Source: Epithemia pelagica (lineage: Eukaryota > Protista > Bacillariophyta). Taken from it: a stretch of 64,000 nt of DNA. Under the pieces are notes generated by a model. It ran no database searches. It was not told the origin of the DNA and saw nothing but the letters and a program-made list of their open reading frames with translations. Both the position numbers and the translations under genes were made by a program. The DNA lies in the NCBI GenBank assembly GCA_946965045.2, contig OX337234.1, positions 1,984,001-2,048,000 of the forward strand, in the 5' to 3' direction. Positions within the stretch are counted from its first letter, which is position 1, and each line of letters starts with the position of its first letter. Positions 29,552-42,788 of the stretch are shown here, one piece after another.

Positions 29552-32500
29552 ATGGGCGGTTCGGTGTCATCTTTCCAGGAGCTGTGCTCAAGTCTTAGGG
29601 CCAACGATCCGGATGTCCCTATTGTGAATACAGATTGTTTCCCTTACTTCGACAACGAATGTGCGGAACAACTGGGACTTGCTTTGAAAGACAATGTTCA
29701 TGTACGAAAGATTTTTCTAGATATATCCAGTCTCGCTTCTTCTGGACCAGACACTGGTGTATCCCTTCTCGCTTCCTTCCTTCAAACGTCGCGCACTTTG
29801 AAAACTTTGCTTATCAAGTCAACTCCTGGGTTGGCATTACAGGATGCGGGCAAAGTTCTCTCCACTTTCTTTGATGCTTCGATCGGAAGCGACTCGATTC
29901 AAGAGCTTACCTTGGTTGATACCGATCTAACGATCGCATGCGCAGATTTTCGACGTTTACTTACAGAATGTCGTCCAAACTTACGGCGCTTAAGACTCTC
30001 CTGTGCTTGCTCTGTGGACCCAAGTGGAAAGAAAGACATTGTGGACGCGGTGGCTCAGAACAAGACCATCACCGGAATAGAGTTGTCACATGTGTCCGAA
30101 TCTATCTGGTCGGCTTGCATGGCTGGGGTGGCCATGAACGAAAATCTTCACAGCCTCAACTTGGATCGTCTAACATCGGTGTATGATTACGCTCCTTTGT
30201 CGCATGCCATTGAAACCAATACTTCAATTGAGTCACTGTGTGTTCGTTATGGCACTATTCCCAACATGGCAGCAATGGCTTCAAGCCTACAACGAAACAA
30301 CACCATTGTTGAATTGATATTACTACATTGTTCCATCACTTCAAGACAGGTTCCTCATATCGCACGCATACTGAAAGGGTGCCCAACGCTGAAGCGGCTG
30401 AACTTAGCTTCGAATTACATCCAAACCGAAGGATTCGCACTTCTTGCCAACGGTACGTGAAAAGGGCGCGACCTAATGGAGACTAGCCATAGGGCTGACG
30501 TATAGGGTCGACGTCACCTTGCCCAACCAGCCTCACACTCTGGATGACGCACTACTTGCATATCTTTTAGGAACGTACGAACTAGGTAATCTTCTATCAT
30601 AATTTTACGAATACATACCCTTTTCAGGTTATGAGCCCAAGCATCACGCATTGAAGCCTGTTGCGAAAAGACCATAACGATTTGGTGGACCAGTTCAAGC
30701 GTTTGACGTTGAGGAAATCCGTACAAGCGGCCGTTGAAGTCCCCAAGACCTACCAGTTTCGATAGCCCGTTTAAAGAACGGTGGTGCGTCGAAGAAGCAA
30801 GAACCAGGTGGTTTCGTTGCGATTTTCCAGTGAATGGAAACGATAGCTGACTTTCTCAGAGTAAGAGCAGCTGCTGAAGACTCAAGCTTGGATTCCGGTT
30901 CCACGACAATACCAGGTTGGTCGTCCTCTGAAGACTCAAGTTTAAGTAGTATCGAAACGATGAGTAATAAAGTAATTATTAACGGAGAAGAGGTTGAAGT
31001 GAACACAAGTGCCACACGGTCTGAAGATGTGGAGACAGCCCTGTTCAAGAAAGAAGACCGAGAAGGCATGGGTGCAGAGAAGCGCCAGGAACTCTTCTCG
31101 AAGGCTGCTACTTCAACCCCTGCCAAGTTTGATCTCCTATCAGCTAACATCACAGACGTGAAACAGCTGGAGGAGTGTTACAATTTGAACCTTTTGGTGT
31201 CTCGTCTGAAGAGCCAACATATTATGTACGACATGCATGATGTGTTTACTATTGTTGTACCTGATGGAACAGGACCGAACCTCAAGACGAATACGACACC
31301 CAAGGATTTATATCTGTTCTATGCAGATCTCTCAGAAGAAGAAGTCGCTGCCAGTAACGAGTGGTATTCCACATGGCCGAGTAAGTCTTGGTATCGTGAA
31401 AACTTAATGTTAACCGCGAAGCAACTTGAGGCCAGCATGAAGAATTCCCTTTGGACCAAGGTCTATGAACGGTACAAACGTTACAAGACCGAACAGCAAG
31501 GTGGTCCTTTACTTTTTGTGATCATGATGAAGCTTCTCGTGACCCACACTGAACAAGCAACGAAGAATCTTGTAGACACAGTTGAAAATCTTAAGATTTC
31601 TAAAGTCCGTGGGGAGAATGTTTCTAAGATCGTAAGCCTCATCCTCGGTGCTCACGAACGATTGGAGGCAATTTCAAATGTTCCCGATGATTTCTCTAAA
31701 ACGGTTCTAAAGGTCTTACAGACTAGTTCCGTGGATCAGTTTAATAAAGTGTTTGAGCTAATTGAGAGCCAAGCACGAATTGCTGGCGCCTTGACTCGCT
31801 CTACGCCATCTACCCAAGCGCAGTTCCAGATCCCCTCTGTTGAAGCCTTGTTGGATCTAGCCGAGCAAGAATATCTCTCCCTTTGTCGCTCCAACGATTG
31901 GACGGGGAGCAAGACACGGGGAAGCCCCTCTACATTCACGGCTGATAGCCTCACGGCTGATTCCGGCGGTTCTCGTAAATGGAAGCCCGTCTGTTGGAAC
32001 TGTGGTGGGGAACATACCATCAAGGACTGCCCCAAACCAAAGAACGAAGCCCTCATTGAGGCCAATCGTCAAAAATATCAGGCCAAGAAGAAGGCCGGCG
32101 CTGGCAAAGGCAATGGCGATCGTAACCGTAGCTCTAACAAGTGGCGCCCTCCTTCGTCCGACGAGAATGGCAAGCGCATCATTGATGGCAAAACCATGCA
32201 CTGGGATGCCACTACCAAACGTTGGAACAAGCCTCAAGGCAATGTTGCCAACGACCAAGCCGCTCCCGCAACCGACTCTTCGACCTCGACCTCCCAAGTG
32301 CGGTTTGCTGGTGCCACTGCCAACGTTGCTGCCACTGGCTCTGCTGCGACGACCCACGCTCAGTCTCGTCGCGTTCTTGAGCGCACCCTTGAGTCTTTAA
32401 TGACCCAGGTGCAGAACTTATCTTGATGGCGTGGCCGTCGACCTCGTGTCGATGTAGGCCACCCTTTCCCTCAAACCTCTCTTCCCAGGAGGGATACCTG

Positions 32501-35500
32501 GGTAACCTCAGTTTGGTTGTTGTTTTCCTTTTCTGTGATCCTCGTTTTGTGTTTTCGTTCCATGATGCACTGGGCCTTGTCCTTTGAGTCACAGTATTGC
32601 CCCCTTTGTCCGTTCGCTTGTGCGTCTTTCGTCGCCCTCTGTTTGCGAAAGGGAGGTGCACGTGGACGCAACCCTTTTTCGCGTGCGATGTTTGGTCCCA
32701 ACCAGATACGACGACGTCGCAAGACTCGGATTTATCACGTACGACGGCGCTTTACCACACAGAGTATGGCCTTTAACGTCGTAACGGATTCGACGGTTAC
32801 ATGGGCTGGTACGATTGATATTCAACGGACCCCCTTTACTAAAGCCAGAGCGCGCCTTCCAAGACGACGCGCAAGGCGAGGCAAGAAACCGAAACACAAG
32901 AAAGCTACCATACCACGAAGAAGTGCAACGGATAGCTATGAGTTTAACCTCCAAGGAATCTATGTCCCTACAACGTGGACAATACAACAAGAGGAGCCGC
33001 CAGATCGAACATCAGAGCGACTTTCTCGTTGGTTTGGAACGATGGAGGAGCTGGAAGATGCCATCTCCAAGCCTTGGCCAAGAAAAGGTCCAGATCCTCT
33101 AGCCCAGTTCCACGCTATACGGGTACTGAGTGGGTCACCTTTCTCCAAAAGTCATGCACCAAAGAAACGCATGCAGAAAGCAATGATTGCTGCTGCCAAG
33201 CTGACTGGTGCTGTGCCTTCCCAAGTCAATCAAGGATCACTGCCACCTTTGCTGCAGCAACGCATGTCAGTCTATCTCAATGCAGCCGATGATGCCGACC
33301 TTCCTGTAGTGATTGATACAGGAGCATCAACGTCTTTGACTCCTCGGCTGGAAGATTTCGATGGACCAATCAAGGATTGCGAGACAACCGAGCTCAATGG
33401 ATTGTCGAGTACAACGACTGTGGTTGGAGTAGGGATGGCTGCCTGGACACTGAAGGACGTGTTTGGAGTGGTACGAACCATCCGAACACGTGCCTATTAC
33501 GTTCCAGAGGCGCAAATCCGCCTGTTTAGCCCCCAAACCTACTTCCAAGAACAAGCCAAAGGTGAATTGTCGGTTAATGCCTTCCGTTCCAGGTTGACTC
33601 TTCATGATGGAAGCGAACTAGAGTTTCCTTTTCATCCCAACAGCAATCTCCCCTTAATGCTGTCTGGCCGCCAAACCAAGATGGGACTTGCCTTTGAAGA
33701 TGTCATGGCATTGTCCAAAGAGTTTGATTGTCATGGTTTGATGTCGGTGGCGGACGAAGTGAATCAAAATGTAACACAGGCTCAAAGAGAGCTGTTGACA
33801 TGGCACTGGAAGCTAGGCCATGCGAATTTTGAGTGGATCCAAGATTTGTGTCGAGATCCTAAAACCGATCGACGCCGAATCCTTCGGACACGACACCGTC
33901 ACGTGTCAAGTTGTCCCGTCAACGGTTTGCGATGTGCCGCCTGTCAATTGGGAAAACAGCGGCGTCGCGGTGCAAACACACAGCACACTAACACCAAGGA
34001 TGGTCGTTTTATGGTCACTCGGTCAAATAATCTTCGTCCCGGTGACTGCGTCAGTCTTGACCAATATGACTCGACGTTGACTGGCCGTCTTCCGCATACA
34101 CGCGGCAAAGAACCAAAGAAGGACCAGTACACTGGCGGCACGCTCTTTATCGACCATGCTACGGGACTGATGCATTGTGTACATCAAGTCTCCCTAAACA
34201 CTGGTGAAACCATCGAAGCCAAACTTCAGTTCGAACGGTTTGCACAGGACCATGGAGTCACCGTCAAGTCGTATCTGGCGGATAATGCCCCTTTTGGCAA
34301 TACCAAGTTTGTGGACGCAGTGAAACATGCTGGTCAGTCCCTGTCGTTTTCTGGAGTTGGGGCCCATCACCAAAATGGTGTGGCCGAGCGCGGCGTTCGT
34401 ACGGTAACCTCTTGGGCCCGTACTATGATGCTACACGCTGTGCTGCACTGGCCTGAGCATGCTCACGACTTAAGCCTCTGGCCATTTGCCCTCAACCACG
34501 CAGTATGGATGTGGAATAACCTTCCCAAGCGTGGCTCGTTTATGGCCCCGCTTGAACTTTTCTCTGGCACAGTCTTCCCTACCTTGGACCATCTACATCG
34601 AAGCCATGTGTGGGGATGCCCAGTCTATGTACTGGACCCCAAGATTCAGGACGGAAAGAAGCTCCCTAAATGGTCGCCACGTGCCCGACGAGGGCAATAT
34701 CTTGGCGTTTCTCCCGACCATTCTAGCACAGTGGGCTTAATTCTGAATATTGCGACTGGCTATGTTAGCCCGCAATATCACGTCGTCTACGACGACCTCT
34801 TTTCAAGTGTTCCTAATGCCGAAACCGGCGGCGTCCTACAACAAGATATGTTTACTGGGTCTTTTTGGGACCAGTTGGTGGCCTCTGGTCTGGAGCGAAT
34901 TGATGATGGTGACTTTGAGGACGAGCAGCCTCAGCCACCACCCCTCCACCAAGATTGGCTCACTCCTGAAGAGATTGATGCCCTACGGCACCAACAAAAC
35001 GACATGGCTCGTATTAACCCCTTGCCTATGCCTCCTATCCTTCCTCCACGCGCCCCTGCTCCAGAGGGAGCGGCCGCTCCAGAGGGAGCTCTGGTGCCCT
35101 TGGCTCCAGAGGGAGAGGACAATGGTCATGGTGAGATCAACGATGTGGAACCTCTTTTTCCTCCCCTTGATTTGGATGTGGAGCCAAATCCACCAGCAGC
35201 TCCTCCTGACGACGATCCCCAGGACTTGATTCCTCCTTTGGTGATGGATGGAGTATGGGACGGCCCAAACAACTCCACCATTGACTCTGGAGACGAAGTT
35301 GTGATTTTTGAGAATGAGGAGCAGGATGTGGAAGATCCAGTCCGGGCACAGGAGAAAATGAGACGTGCCCAGCACCTGGAACAGCCGGATGAAATGCATT
35401 TTGGTCGTGGCAAGCGCGCACGCAAGCCCAATCCTAAGTATGCTGCGTACTCGCGCGAACGGTGGAAAGAACACGCCTTATTTGGTCACGACGATTATGC

Positions 35501-38500
35501 GCGACTCAAGGTGAAACGTGACTGCCTTAACGATTCATTCCTGGCAAGACTTGATTGGACCTCAACCATTCGTGACCTCAAGTCATCTCAGTCAACGCTG
35601 ATGAGTCGCATCCTAGCTTTGAACACCAACCCTAAGACGGGAACTGTGGAAGCTATGCATCCGATGTTCCTCATTACCAAGGCCGACGCAGCAGATAACC
35701 CACGATGGAACGAAGCCATGAGTGGACCAGATGCTGCTGGCTTCATGGAAGCATGCAAGAAGGAGATCGATACGCTATTCCGCCTGATGAAAGCCTGGAT
35801 AGTCGTCGATCGCGAACCTTGGATGAACGTCATCCCATCAACTTGGGCGTTCAAGAGGAAGCGTTTCCCAGATGGAACGGTCAAGAAGTTGAAAGCACGA
35901 TTCTGTGCTCGTGGAGATTACCAGGTGGAAGGGATAGACTTCTTCGACACCTTTGCTCCAGTGGTGAACTGGACTACAGTCCGCCTAATGCTTATCCTGT
36001 CGATTATCCTTAACCTTGCAACGGTGCAGGTAGACTATACTGCGGCATTCCTTCACGCCCCAATTGATCGTGATCCCAAATGGGACTCAATGACACGTCA
36101 AGAGCGGGAAAGGAGCGGTGTCTACGTTGAGATGCCCAGAGGATTCGGACAAGACGGCAAAGTACTGAAGCTGAAGCGTTCACTGTACGGCCTGAAACAA
36201 GCCCCACGGAATTTCTTTCAACACTTCAAAGGGCAATTGGAACGAGTCGGCTTTGTTGCCCAGGACTCGGTTGATCCATGCCTATTTATTTCGGACAAGG
36301 TAATAGCCGTAGTCTATGTGGATGACACGCTATTTTACAGTCCCAAGAGAGAGTACATTGATGAGGTACTCAATAGACTGAAAACCGAAGAGCACGCAGA
36401 ACTCGATGTTGAGGATAGCGTTGCTGGTTTTCTGGGTGTCCATATTGAAAGGGACGAGACCCAAGGAACAATCAAGCTGGTACAGAAGGGCTTGATTAAA
36501 CGCATCTTAGAGGCCCTACAAGTTGGTGACTTGGACCGGAGTTGTACCCCAGCTCTTTCTAAGCCCCTGGTAGAGGACAAGAATGGAGATCCCCCACAAG
36601 GCAGATACAATTATGCAAGTGTGATTGGGATGCTACAATATTTACAGGCACACAGTCGCCCCGACATTACCTATGCGGTGAGCCAATGTGCACGCTTTGC
36701 TTTCAGTCCAAAGAGATCCCATGAGCAAGCGGTTGAAAAGATTGGACAGTACCTTAAGCACACGCAAGACCAAGGACTGATCCTTAAGCCCGCCACAAGT
36801 CTGGACATCGATTGTTTTGTCGACGCCGACTTCGCTGGATTGTGGCCATATGAAGAAAAGCTGGACTCGACCTGTGTGAAAAGTCGTACAGGATTTGTGA
36901 TCTGTCTGGCAAATTGTCCCATGGTTTGGACAAGCAAACTACAAACATCCATTGCCTTGAGCACTATGGAGGCCGAATATAACGCACTGAGTGAGTCGTT
37001 GAAATCGGTCCTACCACTACAAGAGTTGCTGACCCACGTTGCAGAAGGAGTTGGGCTCAGCAAAGAATACACAACAACATTTAAAACGACAATCTGGGAA
37101 GATAACATGGGAGCCTTGACTTTGGCCAATCTAGAACCCGGGCGGATCACACCACGATCGAAATACTACGCTGTTAAGATTCATTGGTTTCGACAGCATA
37201 TCAGTGATCGGCTGCGAGTCGTCAAAGTGGATACGACACAACAACGCGCCGACATCTTGACGAAAGGTCTCACACAAACCACATTCGAACACATTCGGAA
37301 GCTCCTCTGTGGGTGGTGACCAAATCTATTCTCACAATTTACACATCTCAAAGCCATTATCTCATCCGTGTTCGGCTGAGAGGGAGTGAAAAAGGGCGCG
37401 ACCTAATGGAGACTAGCCATAGGGCTGACGTATAGGGTCGACGTCACCTTGCCCAACCAGCCTCACACTCTGGATGACGCACTACTTGCATATCTTTTAG
37501 GAACGTACGAACTAGGTAATCTTCTATCATAATTTTACGAATACATACCCTTTTCAGTACGTACTGCTGTGTGGGGGTCGAAATTGAGTTCTGTTTGTTC
37601 CTTTTGTCTGATTTTCCCTTCTTCTGCAACAGGTCTGTACCGAAACCAAACGCTTAAGCTATTGGATATATCTGACAATGCGATTTCAGGAAGAGAGGCA
37701 TCTCGAATCTTGGGCGATCTTTTGAGACGAAATCGATCGTTGGAGCAACTTGATATTAACGACAACAGTTGGTCTAATCGGGCTGGGATAAGATCATTTG
37801 CCACCGCACTGGCACGCAATCAAGCTCTCACCTCGTTGAACTTGTCGGGCTGTGGTTTAGGCAGCGCGGCATTGGAGATACTTTCGAGACATGGTCTACG
37901 AAACAACCAGCATTTAGAGTGCCTCAGCTTAAATTCCAATACTATCGGCGATCGCGGCTTACAATCGCTCATTGAGGCTCTCCAAGGGTCGAACTTAGTT
38001 CGTTTCCTGTGTTTAGAACATACTGGTTTGAGTGATGTTGGTGGTAAGTGGAGAATCTCAAATGCAAATTACGAACTCGTCCGAAAAGAAAATTGACCCA
38101 TGTGTTTCTCCTACGAACCAGGTTTGTTGTTGGCTAGCTTTCTGAGCAATTCTAGATGCCAATTGAAACATCTTTCTGTGATTGGAAACTCTCTGGGGGA
38201 TGATACAGTTGTTGCAATCGCACATGCATTAGAGACAAACCAGGAGCTGGAAGCCTTGAACATGGCTGAGACCAACTTTGGCAAAGAAGGAATCGAGGCG
38301 CTTTGTGTAGCCCTACGAACGAACAAAACCTTGAAAAGCATATCTTTCACGTTTCGGGATGCCACATGTCTCTTTATGTGGCATGAAACCCTTAGAGTGA
38401 ACGAAGGGTTGGTCGAAGTACATGCACTATCGTATGCAGATACAATCTCGCCGGAAGTCCAATCCCAACTGGACTTTTATGCCTGGCGTAATCAGTGCAG

Positions 38501-41191: not shown

Positions 41192-41732
41192 CTTCTTCTT
41201 CTTCTTCGTGACACCAAATAATCTCTCTTGTCTTATACTATAGAAAATGGTTTGTTGCTTTGGTTCGTTTGTTGGACAGGAGTGTCAACACTCAGGAGGG
41301 ACGTGGAAGTCTTTAATGGTGTTCCTCTCTCCCACTTGGAACTCGAAAAAGTGACCATTACGGAAAAAAGACCCCCCAAAACGCACTGAAGTGCCCGTAC
41401 CAATTATCAAAAGTAGAATCCTCTTGGGAATTTCTATCAGCAGGCGCGCGCGGCCCATCGACGCAGGGCGGAGGTCGCCAAGACACAAACTATGATGGCA
41501 ACACAAATCTACCTTACCTATTCTACGCGAGCACCATTAGTTTGATCTCCAAACTCCAAAGGCTCGATTCTTTCTTTTTCTATACTCCTAGAGACTACAG
41601 CAAAGAGTAATGACAACATATACTAGAAGAGAAGACAACCTAGTTTGTCGGCTAAAGTGCATTTGGAGGATTGCTACCAAGTTCTTCAATTCTGAGTTCG
41701 AAGCGAGTCAGAACATTGGTTGTACAACCTCG

Positions 41733-42788
41733 TCATTCTGAATCTTGATGGCGTCCTGATTCGTCGACGATGGAGGTATCCGATTTGTTGCTGAGGTCGG
41801 AGATGGAGCTATCCAATTTGTTGCTGAGGTCGGAGATGGACGTATCCAATTCGTTGCTGAGGTCGGAGATGGAGGTGCTGAGGTCGGAGATGGAGGTATC
41901 CAATTCGTTGCTGAGGTCGGAGATGGAGGTATGCAATTCGTTGCTGAGGTCGGAGATGGAGGTATGCAATTCGTTGCTGAGGTCGGAGATGGAGTTGCTG
42001 AGGTCGGAGATGGAGGTATGCAATTCGTTGCTGAGGTCGGAGATGGAGGTATGCAATTCGTTGCTGAGGTCGGAGATGGAGGTATGCAATTCGTTGAAGG
42101 CAGACTTTATCTCTGACTTGACGTCGGAAGCTAAGAAGAAAGCTGCAAGGACATATATCAGCGATGGAACTCCAGGAAGGAAAGCCATCACAGCTTCTTG
42201 CCAAAAAGGCTTTTCCACTGCCTCCTTTGCTGCCACTTGGATGGCACCAACTGCAGGATGTGGATATGGCGTCGGCGTCAACAGAGCCAACACACATTCT
42301 TACCAAAAAGGCATTTCCACTGCCTCCTTTGCTGCCACTGGGATGGCAGCAACTGCAGGTTGTGGATGTGCCAAGAAAGACAATGGCGTCAGCAAGAAAA
42401 ATACACTGCTTGATGCAAAAAGTGATGAAACCGCTCCTGCTACTCTACCGCCGGCGCCGGTAGATAGTTCTTGCATGACCACGTCTTTCGTAACAGGCGG
42501 TGATGCGTTGACTTGCTGGCCAGGCTGTTGCTTCTCATGATGATGATGATGATGCATTGGACCACTAAGGAAAACCAGACTACCACGGGGAGGAGTTGTC
42601 GTCATGGTCGTCGTAAATCCCGTGCGAAGAACGCGGACAGGGCCCATAGGAGGCGATGTCGTGACGGTGCCACCGGTCGTGGTAACGGGCACGGCAACGA
42701 CAAATCCGGCCACTACTGCAGTGGAGGAGGCGATCGCAGCGAGCAATAGCAGCAACGTACGACGTAGTGTTGATTGGATGGTTCTCAT
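41733..42788 (-). pseudogene. Putative plastid/thylakoid-targeted coiled-coil protein interrupted by one in-frame TAA (42300-42302); pseudogene or spliced gene
   Basis: ORFs 42300-42788 and 41733-42293 are in the same frame. Signal peptide ends VAG-F, a second hydrophobic domain ends PQPAVAA, there is a 102-bp internal duplication, and the C-terminus has 11-aa repeats. Confidence 0.6.
41757..42095 (-). repeat. Coding minisatellite: nine 33-nt units (NELHTSISDLS) and two 21-nt units (N/TSISDLS)
   Basis: Order 33-33-33-21-33-33-33-21-33-33-33 = 339 nt; near-identical units that degenerate at the 3' end. Confidence 0.92.

What the first reader, a model, noticed from the sequence alone, without database searches (positions are those of the whole stretch)
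32400..32564. Gag and Pol in one frame, separated by a single TGA plus a strong hairpin: candidate programmed UGA readthrough in a diatom copia element
Seen: gag ends TCT TGA (32424-32426). The same frame continues TGG CGT GGC... without a stop to 37319, giving one 2161-codon frame with a single UGA exactly at the Gag/Pol boundary. Four nt after the stop begins a stem-loop: GTGGCC-GTCGAC / CTCGT loop / GTCGAT-GTA bulge-GGCCAC (32431-32462). Established: most copia elements use one ORF or frameshifting; in-frame stop suppression with a 3' RNA structure is known for Candida Tca2 and for gammaretroviruses. Inference: this element sets its Gag:Gag-Pol ratio by structure-stimulated UGA readthrough. 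I know of no such description for diatom CoDi elements, but could not check. Caveat: an ATG at 32562 lies only 45 codons downstream, so reinitiation is an alternative.
Basis: partly seen in the sequence, partly recalled or inferred. Interest (0 to 1): 0.85.

Follow-up and report, generated by a model that had tools for sequence, protein, structure and literature searches.

The report
Conserved UGA readthrough signal, copia clade
A recently inserted copia-type jumping gene, probably from a diatom, has its capsid gene and its enzyme gene in one reading frame split by a single UGA stop that distant relatives also keep, followed by a predicted RNA stem, so the enzymes are likely made when ribosomes occasionally read through the stop, a known retroelement strategy with a signal I did not find described.

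Summary
Observation confirmed. A young Ty1/copia element (30458-37556) has gag and pol in one frame, split by TGA at 32424-32426. The stop is not a private mutation: 75 of 78 full-length Gag relatives end at the same place, and all 8 junctions seen as DNA (7 families; Gag 30-57% identical where measured) carry TGA. All six lineages tabulated have UGA-N6-GG(G/C)C. In 4 of 6 this opens a bulged stem whose upper pairs change on both sides; two lineages, one held out, lack that exact stem. Pol stays in frame, and the first AUG lies anywhere from codon 9 to 87, often behind a conserved hydrophobic stretch. Best reading: programmed UGA readthrough (about 0.8), stimulated by the stem (about 0.65). 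No translation data were available. The host (diatom) and CoDi membership are inferred, not shown. The scan noted this layout before in other genomes (six notes). Known strategy; the clade-wide signal was not found in my literature searches.

The parts
30453..30457 (+). 5' target-site duplication GTACG
   Evidence: identical copy at 37557-37561
30458..30626 (+). 5' LTR, 169 nt, TG...CA
   Evidence: identical to the 3' LTR but for one A in a homopolymer
30627..30638 (+). primer-binding-site position, GGTTATGAGCCC
   Evidence: likeness to the copia-type internal initiator-tRNA site is recalled, not tested
30834..32426 (+). gag, 530 aa, ending in TGA
   Evidence: AlphaFold model matches the Drosophila copia capsid best (Z 9.4, rmsd 6.4, 182 aligned)
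31992..32030 (+). single CCHC zinc knuckle of Gag
   Evidence: C, C, H, C invariant in 20 of 20 aligned Gags
32424..32426 (+). in-frame UGA between gag and pol, candidate readthrough codon
   Evidence: TGA in 8 of 8 junctions seen as DNA
32427..32432 (+). 6-nt spacer; +1 and +6 pyrimidine in 6 of 6 lineages, +5 T in 5 of 6
32433..32460 (+). conserved core of the predicted stem: GGCC/GGCC (4 bp), 6-bp upper stem, 5-nt loop, 3-nt 3' bulge
32426..32587 (+). short -1-frame ORF opened by the TGATG overlap (53 codons); not the Pol frame; the ATG is absent from 4 of 6 lineages
32427..37319 (+). pol frame, 1630 codons: linker, protease, integrase, RT, RNase H
32499..32555 (+). hydrophobic 19-residue stretch (Kyte-Doolittle 2.24), upstream of the first Met; candidate membrane helix
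   Evidence: counterpart in 58 of 71 long pre-protease regions of relatives
32562..32564 (+). first in-frame ATG after the stop (codon 46)
32862..32906 (+). Arg/Lys-rich stretch of the linker (10 of 15 residues)
33315..33323 (+). protease active-site DTG, codon 297 after the stop
   Evidence: weak Pol_BBD match E 0.027
33762..33959 (+). GAG-pre-integrase domain, start of integrase
   Evidence: Pfam PF13976 E 5e-5, below the curated cut-off
35790..36554 (+). reverse transcriptase, copia type
   Evidence: Pfam RVT_2 E 5.6e-34
37373..37386 (+). polypurine tract
37387..37556 (+). 3' LTR, 170 nt
37557..37561 (+). 3' target-site duplication GTACG

Best explanation
The element has gag and pol in one frame split by a conserved UGA, and Pol is likely made as a Gag-Pol fusion by programmed readthrough of that UGA, likely stimulated by a predicted RNA stem that begins 6 nt downstream. 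Most ribosomes would stop and release the 530-aa Gag; a few percent would decode UGA with a near-cognate tRNA while the stem sits at the mRNA entry channel, and continue through a 296-codon linker into protease, integrase and RT. Shown: layout, conservation of stop, frame and GG(G/C)C motif, and two-sided base changes in the stem. Inferred: readthrough itself (about 0.8), the stem as its stimulator (about 0.65 overall), the rate and the inserted residue (from known systems only).
For: Stop conserved: 12 of 13 members of the window's own Gag cluster, and 60 of 85 listed members of seven clusters, end like their representative, none extended into Pol. Of the 150 best Gag representatives, 78 reach the profile end and 75 stop within 10 residues of it; none is fused to Pol. 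Always UGA: 8 of 8 DNA junctions. Frame kept: Pol follows in frame 0, open from stop to protease, in 6 of 6 intact loci (window, L001, L002, L004, L008, L018) although the linker is 184-298 codons long. The 219 codons between stop and first Met in five lineages hold no stop (joint P 7e-4 under base shuffling). First Met at codon 46, 9, 26, 87, 56; the most hydrophobic 19-mer lies wholly upstream of it in 3 of 5. GG.C at +7,+8,+10 in 6 of 6 lineages against 32 of 2304 TGA triplets in the window; the C starts codons for R, Q and P, so it is not protein-driven. A 4-bp plus 5-7-bp stem with a 2-3-nt 3' bulge starts exactly at +7 in window, L004, L008, L009 (background 0.2-0.3% of positions); each of the first five upper pairs shows 2-3 pair types, and +9 is C-G in the window against G-C in the other three. 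A covariance model from L004+L009 alone ranks the window's junction joint first in 64 kb on both strands (E 0.29) and L008's first among non-training hits (E 0.07). In the sister family of the same host, 0 of 20 core-stem bases change, while spacer, loop and flanking pairs take 6 changes. Geometry fits known UGA readthrough cassettes with 6-12-nt spacers (passages of PMC3159437).
Against: No ribosome, peptide or reporter data. The bulged stem is absent from L001/L002 and from the held-out L018 (model E 6.1 for L018); these have only a 4-5-bp hairpin or a context-dependent long-range stem from about +7 (pair probabilities 0.4-1.0). The descriptor was written after seeing L004, L008 and L009, so its P value is inflated, and the model E-values are not significant. 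The window reads UGA-U, not the leakier UGA-C (4 of 6 lineages have C). The Met-Met at codons 46-47 is shared with the sister family (P0121). In Tca2 a similar stop-plus-structure junction did not direct readthrough in S. cerevisiae. L009 is a decayed copy whose Pol frame breaks at codon 20. Lineages are related, so they are not fully independent draws.
Confidence: 0.65

Rival explanations
1. Pol is initiated separately at a downstream AUG, by reinitiation after Gag, internal ribosome entry or an internal promoter; the stem would serve that initiation.
For: Met-Met at codons 46-47 is kept in the sister family. Tca2's junction holds a minor promoter. The stop overlaps an ATG (TGATG) in the window and L008.
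Against: First Met varies from codon 9 to 87 and lies behind the hydrophobic stretch in 3 of 5 lineages; no stops and no frame shift upstream of it. First Met differs even among copies of one neighbouring Pol cluster (P0269, P0277). The overlapping ATG is in the -1 frame and closes after 53 codons. This model does not need the stop to be UGA or in frame.
Confidence: 0.15
2. Readthrough occurs, but it rests on the UGA and its primary context (spacer, GG(G/C)C) or on distant elements; the stem has another job, such as packaging or dimerisation.
For: The primary motif is in 6 of 6 lineages, the bulged stem in 4 of 6. Tca2 needs more than its local structure.
Against: The stem starts at a fixed distance from the stop in all four lineages that have it; a packaging signal need not keep that register.
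Confidence: 0.13
3. A spliced RNA removes the stop and joins gag to pol.
For: Drosophila copia uses splicing to set Gag:Pol (Background of PMC2194720). A pyrimidine run ending in CAG lies at 32463-32488.
Against: 0 in-frame GT-AG pairs of 45-400 nt with a consensus donor span the stop in the window; candidates in other loci share no position. Splicing would not need a conserved UGA or frame.
Confidence: 0.04
4. The UGA is decoded as selenocysteine.
For: The stop is always UGA, and a stem 6 nt downstream resembles the SEPN1 element (passage in PMC3159437).
Against: No Rfam family, SECIS included, matched 30400-37700 at E up to 1; the codon sits in a linker, not a redox motif. Rfam could miss an algal SECIS.
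Confidence: 0.02
5. The TGA is a private nonsense mutation or an assembly error in a single-ORF element.
For: Three distant relatives are recorded as single Gag-Pol proteins (P0225, P0228, P0233).
Against: Those three fall outside the window's 94-member RT clade. All close and distant members of the clade end Gag at this point, and LTRs and target duplication show a recent insertion.
Confidence: 0.01

Closest known systems
Tca2 (pCal) of Candida albicans, Ty1/copia
   Same: Copia superfamily; gag-UGA-pol in one frame; predicted structure a few nt 3' of the stop.
   Different: Tca2 has an 8-nt purine-rich spacer and a predicted pseudoknot, and its junction did not direct readthrough in S. cerevisiae (PMC2194720, abstract and Background). 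Here: 6-nt spacer, GG(G/C)C, bulged hairpin, and a 184-298-codon linker with a hydrophobic stretch.
Tj1, Tcry1, Tosmo1-3 of fission yeasts, Ty3/gypsy
   Same: In-frame TGA between gag and pol kept across a clade; the Tj1 stop is needed for transposition (passages of PMC4600332 and 10.1101/2022.12.06.519325).
   Different: Other superfamily; signal is a primary 8-nt context GAA-TGA-CT with no stem reported in the passages read; Tj1 pol has no AUG.
Moloney murine leukaemia virus gag-pol readthrough
   Same: Stop between gag and pol, 3' structure sets the Gag:Gag-Pol ratio (about 5%, PMC2194720 Background).
   Different: UAG, 8-nt purine spacer, pseudoknot; experimentally proven.
Type II UGA readthrough with 3' stem (alphaviruses, tobraviruses, furoviruses, Drosophila kelch)
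   Same: UGA, often followed by C, then a 7-12-nt spacer and a bulged stem (passages of PMC3159437).
   Different: Those stems have loops of about 100-270 nt; here the loop is 4-6 nt in four lineages, and the spacer is 6 nt.
CoDi elements of diatoms, CoDi-B/CoDi5 markers
   Same: [quoted passage not shown] CoDi-B has one CCHC, no chromodomain, LPDG and LLS protease markers (supplement 3 of PMC2774666); the window has one CCHC, LHDG and LFS.
   Different: Neither paper proposes readthrough or describes a junction signal in the text I searched; no reference CoDi sequence was available for alignment.

Membership tests
Ty1/copia LTR retrotransposons | LTR pair with TG...CA ends and target-site duplication | tested here: met
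   169/170-nt LTRs, 5-nt duplication GTACG
Ty1/copia LTR retrotransposons | pol order PR-IN-RT-RH with copia-type RT | tested here: met
   DTG at codon 297, pre-integrase 446-511, RVT_2 1122-1376
Ty1/copia LTR retrotransposons | Gag with retroelement capsid fold and zinc knuckle | tested here: met
   Top two matches are copia capsids (Z 9.4 and 7.3, rmsd 6.4-6.5, about 180 aligned); ranks 1-8 are all retroelement capsids; CCHC invariant
CoDi (diatom copia), clade B / CoDi5 | RT groups with reference CoDi sequences | not testable with these tools
   No named CoDi sequence was returned by any search; supplements of PMC2806351 unavailable
CoDi (diatom copia), clade B / CoDi5 | one CCHC, no chromodomain, LPDG/LLS protease markers | tested here: inconclusive
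   One CCHC, no Pfam chromodomain match at E 0.1, LHDG and LFS by eye against the marker table (15 of 25 CoDi rows seen); markers are short
CoDi (diatom copia), clade B / CoDi5 | host is a diatom | not testable with these tools
   No genome or name held; neighbours are LRR, TPR, ankyrin, trypsin, KH genes with short introns, i.e. a compact eukaryote
Retroelements with programmed gag-pol stop readthrough | single in-frame stop between gag and pol, conserved in active relatives | tested here: met
Retroelements with programmed gag-pol stop readthrough | Gag-Pol fusion made by decoding the stop | not testable with these tools
   needs reporter, Ribo-seq or peptide data
Structure-stimulated (type II-like) UGA readthrough | conserved stem 6-12 nt 3' of UGA with compensatory changes | tested here: inconclusive
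   met in 4 of 6 lineages; exact stem absent in L001/L002 and L018
Structure-stimulated (type II-like) UGA readthrough | UGA-CUA or UGA-CGG context | tested here: not met
   window has UGA-UGG; relatives UGA-CAA, CUG, UGC, CUG, CUC
Selenocysteine recoding | SECIS element in the RNA | tested here: inconclusive
   no Rfam match at E up to 1; models may miss algal SECIS

The most novel reading that the evidence does not exclude
A large copia clade of algae (746 Gag representatives at E up to 1e-30) uses its own recoding cassette, UGA-N6-GG(G/C)C with a bulged stem, as the first programmed readthrough signal in diatoms, and readthrough switches on a membrane helix plus basic patch found only in Gag-Pol, so that the rare enzyme-bearing subunits anchor particle assembly at a membrane.
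Probability: 0.25. Interest if true: 0.72.

Novelty: new variant of a known kind. Interest (0 to 1): 0.5.

Why it matters
How copia elements bypass a gag stop is unresolved: the one studied case, Tca2, failed the local-signal test. This clade offers a short candidate signal with natural compensatory changes, so a few reporter mutants can settle it. If it holds, it would be a defined readthrough cassette for diatoms, where my searches found none, and a tool for setting protein ratios in algal engineering. It also means gene callers split these elements wrongly and start Pol at arbitrary Met codons. The strategy itself is known from other retroelements, which limits the surprise.

Tried and rejected
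No host genome is held, so copies were judged from protein clusters and contigs. No RNA holder was listed; contigs of runs of unrecorded kind bridge the junction without a skip over the stop, which says nothing on RNA, and these runs may be the window's own source. The 'longer' Gag search found no fusion, but the tool calls this weak evidence. Viral contigs gave no relatives; the first genome scan none. Foldseek found no PDB match for Gag at E 0.001; the wider aligner did. MAFFT did not align the junctions in register, and RNAalifold on four junctions recovered only the 5-bp lower stem, covariation term -0.12. An apparent perfect conservation of a second hairpin at 32483-32502 in the sister family was dropped: the tool hides differences near contig ends, and 3 unlisted ones fall in 32474-32503. 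L001 against L002 (8 synonymous, 9 non-synonymous changes in 218 linker codons) is too close to test selection. No Rfam match. The protein atlas did not answer, so the linker's fold is untested. Gao et al. 2003 on gag-pol recoding signals was not held; it predates diatom genomes but may list further stop-type copia elements. Supplements of PMC2806351 could not be read and may tabulate the stop. Look-up of earlier findings by Gag sequence gave nothing.
Full report
Observation. The window holds a complete LTR element at 30458-37556: LTRs of 169 and 170 nt that differ by one A, a GTACG target duplication, a primer site and a polypurine tract. One frame runs from ATG 30834 to 37319 with a single internal TGA at 32424-32426, giving 530 and 1630 codons. 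Downstream lie protease, integrase and a copia-type RT in that order. The upstream ORF has no Pfam match, but its predicted structure matches the copia capsid best among 48,161 chains (Z 9.4, rmsd 6.4, 182 aligned), so it is Gag. The hairpin is as described: -20.5 kcal/mol, z -3.46 for 47 nt, among the 9 most stable of 921 windows, core pairs at 0.91-1.0 in context.

The stop is inherited. The Gag search returned 39 proteins. I aligned 19 of them with the window's Gag, leaving out fragments and the long, more distant forms; all 20 end within a few columns of each other at 32-88% identity. In the window's own cluster 12 of 13 members end in QVQNLS, and 60 of 85 listed members of seven clusters end like their representative; the rest are truncated or shifted, none runs into Pol. 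A profile search found 746 representatives at E up to 1e-30. Of the best 150, 78 reach the end of the profile, 75 stop within 10 residues of it, two within 12, and one is a Gag with repeated knuckles and no Pol. Among 114 Pol relatives, three look like single Gag-Pol proteins. In an RT tree of 100 of them plus the window, midpoint-rooted, these three lie outside the window's clade of 94 (support 0.96). Their fusion may be real or due to gene calling; I had no DNA for them.

The junction in DNA. Of 16 metagenome loci, 6 end before the Gag stop, 5 are decayed before or across it, and 5 show it: L001, L002 (97% identical, one family), L004, L008, L009. Of 4 later loci one, L018, is a complete element. 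A contig of a sister family in the same host adds one more. All 8 junctions, window included, have TGA. Gag identity between lineages is 30-57% (L009 not measurable). In the 6 intact loci Pol follows in frame 0 and is open to the protease, 184-298 codons away; L009 breaks at codon 20 and is decayed elsewhere too.

The signal. All six lineages read UGA, six bases, then GG(G/C)C; 32 of 2304 TGA triplets in the window do so by chance. The GG may reflect a glycine, but the C starts Arg, Gln or Pro codons. In window, L004, L008 and L009 this motif is the 5' arm of a 4-bp stem topped by 5-7 further pairs with a 2-3-nt bulge on the 3' side; the upper pairs differ between lineages on both sides (GU/GC/CG/GU, UA/UA/CG/CG, CG/UA/UA/UA, GC/GC/GC/CG, AU/GC/GC/CG) and such a structure starts at 0.2-0.3% of background positions. 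I wrote that descriptor after seeing three of these loci. As a fairer test, a model built from L004 and L009 ranked the window's junction joint first over both strands of the window (E 0.29) and L008's best among non-training hits (E 0.07): right places, weak scores. The sister family changes none of the 20 core-stem bases; its six changes in 32427-32464 hit the spacer, the loop and the outer pairs, one of which breaks. Against: L001/L002 and the held-out L018 lack this stem. L018 can form a longer stem from +7 in a 100-nt context but not in a 150-nt one; L002 has a weak hairpin or a long-range alternative.

The linker. The first Met after the stop is at codon 46, 9, 26, 87 and 56 in five lineages, and the 219 codons before it hold no stop (joint P 7e-4). 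A hydrophobic stretch at about codons 18-48 precedes basic residues; it lies wholly before the first Met in window, L008 and L018 (weaker there, 1.16). Among Pol relatives with at least 200 residues before the protease, 58 of 71 have a 19-mer of mean hydropathy 1.6 or more, against 1 of 71 in an equal stretch from the protease on. The three fused outgroup proteins carry a like stretch between Gag and protease. So the linker looks like a translated continuation of Gag. A membrane role is inference only.

Mechanism. Most likely, ribosomes end at UGA to give Gag and a minority read through to give Gag-Pol, with the stem at the entry channel favouring decoding (inferred from known cassettes; passages of PMC3159437). 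I put readthrough at about 0.8 and the stem as stimulator at about 0.65. Separate initiation (0.15) keeps some support from the Met-Met shared with the sister family and from Tca2's junction promoter. Splicing has no in-frame consensus intron in the window. Selenocysteine has no SECIS match.

Comparison with print. In-frame stops between gag and pol are known: MuLV, Tca2, Tj1/Tcry1/Tosmo. For PMC2194720 I read the abstract and Background: the Tca2 junction did not direct readthrough in S. cerevisiae. For PMC4600332, 10.1101/2022.12.06.519325, PMC3159437 and PMC13517186 I read search passages. [quoted passage not shown] For PMC2774666 I read passages and part of supplement 3. Searches for diatom + retrotransposon + readthrough (7 papers, none on this by listing), diatom + read-through + gag + LTR (0), stramenopile + stop codon readthrough + retrotransposon (0), copia + in-frame stop codon + algae and transmembrane between gag and pol found no description of this signal or linker. 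The library lacks most subscription papers and Gao et al. 2003.

Earlier notes of this scan report the same layout in other genomes. They are leads, not support.

Verdict. Real, conserved and probably functional; a new variant of a known recoding strategy; untested at the bench; host and CoDi clade inferred. Interest 0.5.

Noticed in passing
window 35063-35115; L002 1027-1121; L012 5171-5304; L006 2200-2354: Clusters of AGAGGGAG, identical to the end of the polypurine tract (37379-37386), in the integrase-RT spacer: 3 copies in the window, 4 in L002, 3 in L012, 2 in L006. Candidate central polypurine tracts.
   Followed up: partly
window 30453-30459 and 37557-37632: The element sits in what looks like the 5' splice donor of an intron of a leucine-rich-repeat gene; the duplication keeps GTACGT on both sides, so the host gene may still splice.
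   Followed up: no
L017-L020: Eukaryote-type copia sequences, one complete (L018 1606-8478), lie in contigs filed under bacterial metagenome-assembled genomes; probably binning contamination.
   Followed up: partly
L012 near 2884: A decayed relative of L009 has lost about 47 nt that include the stop and the hairpin; it carries many other stops and shifts.
   Followed up: partly
protein P0285: A 1782-aa Gag-derived protein with many tandem zinc-knuckle and WPP repeats and no Pol; possibly a domesticated Gag.
   Followed up: no
window 41730-42370: Tandem 33/21-nt and 102-nt repeats with ORFs open on both strands.
   Followed up: no
window 32455: The commonest allele in the laid contigs has C for T in the hairpin's bulge, leaving all pairs intact.
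   Followed up: yes
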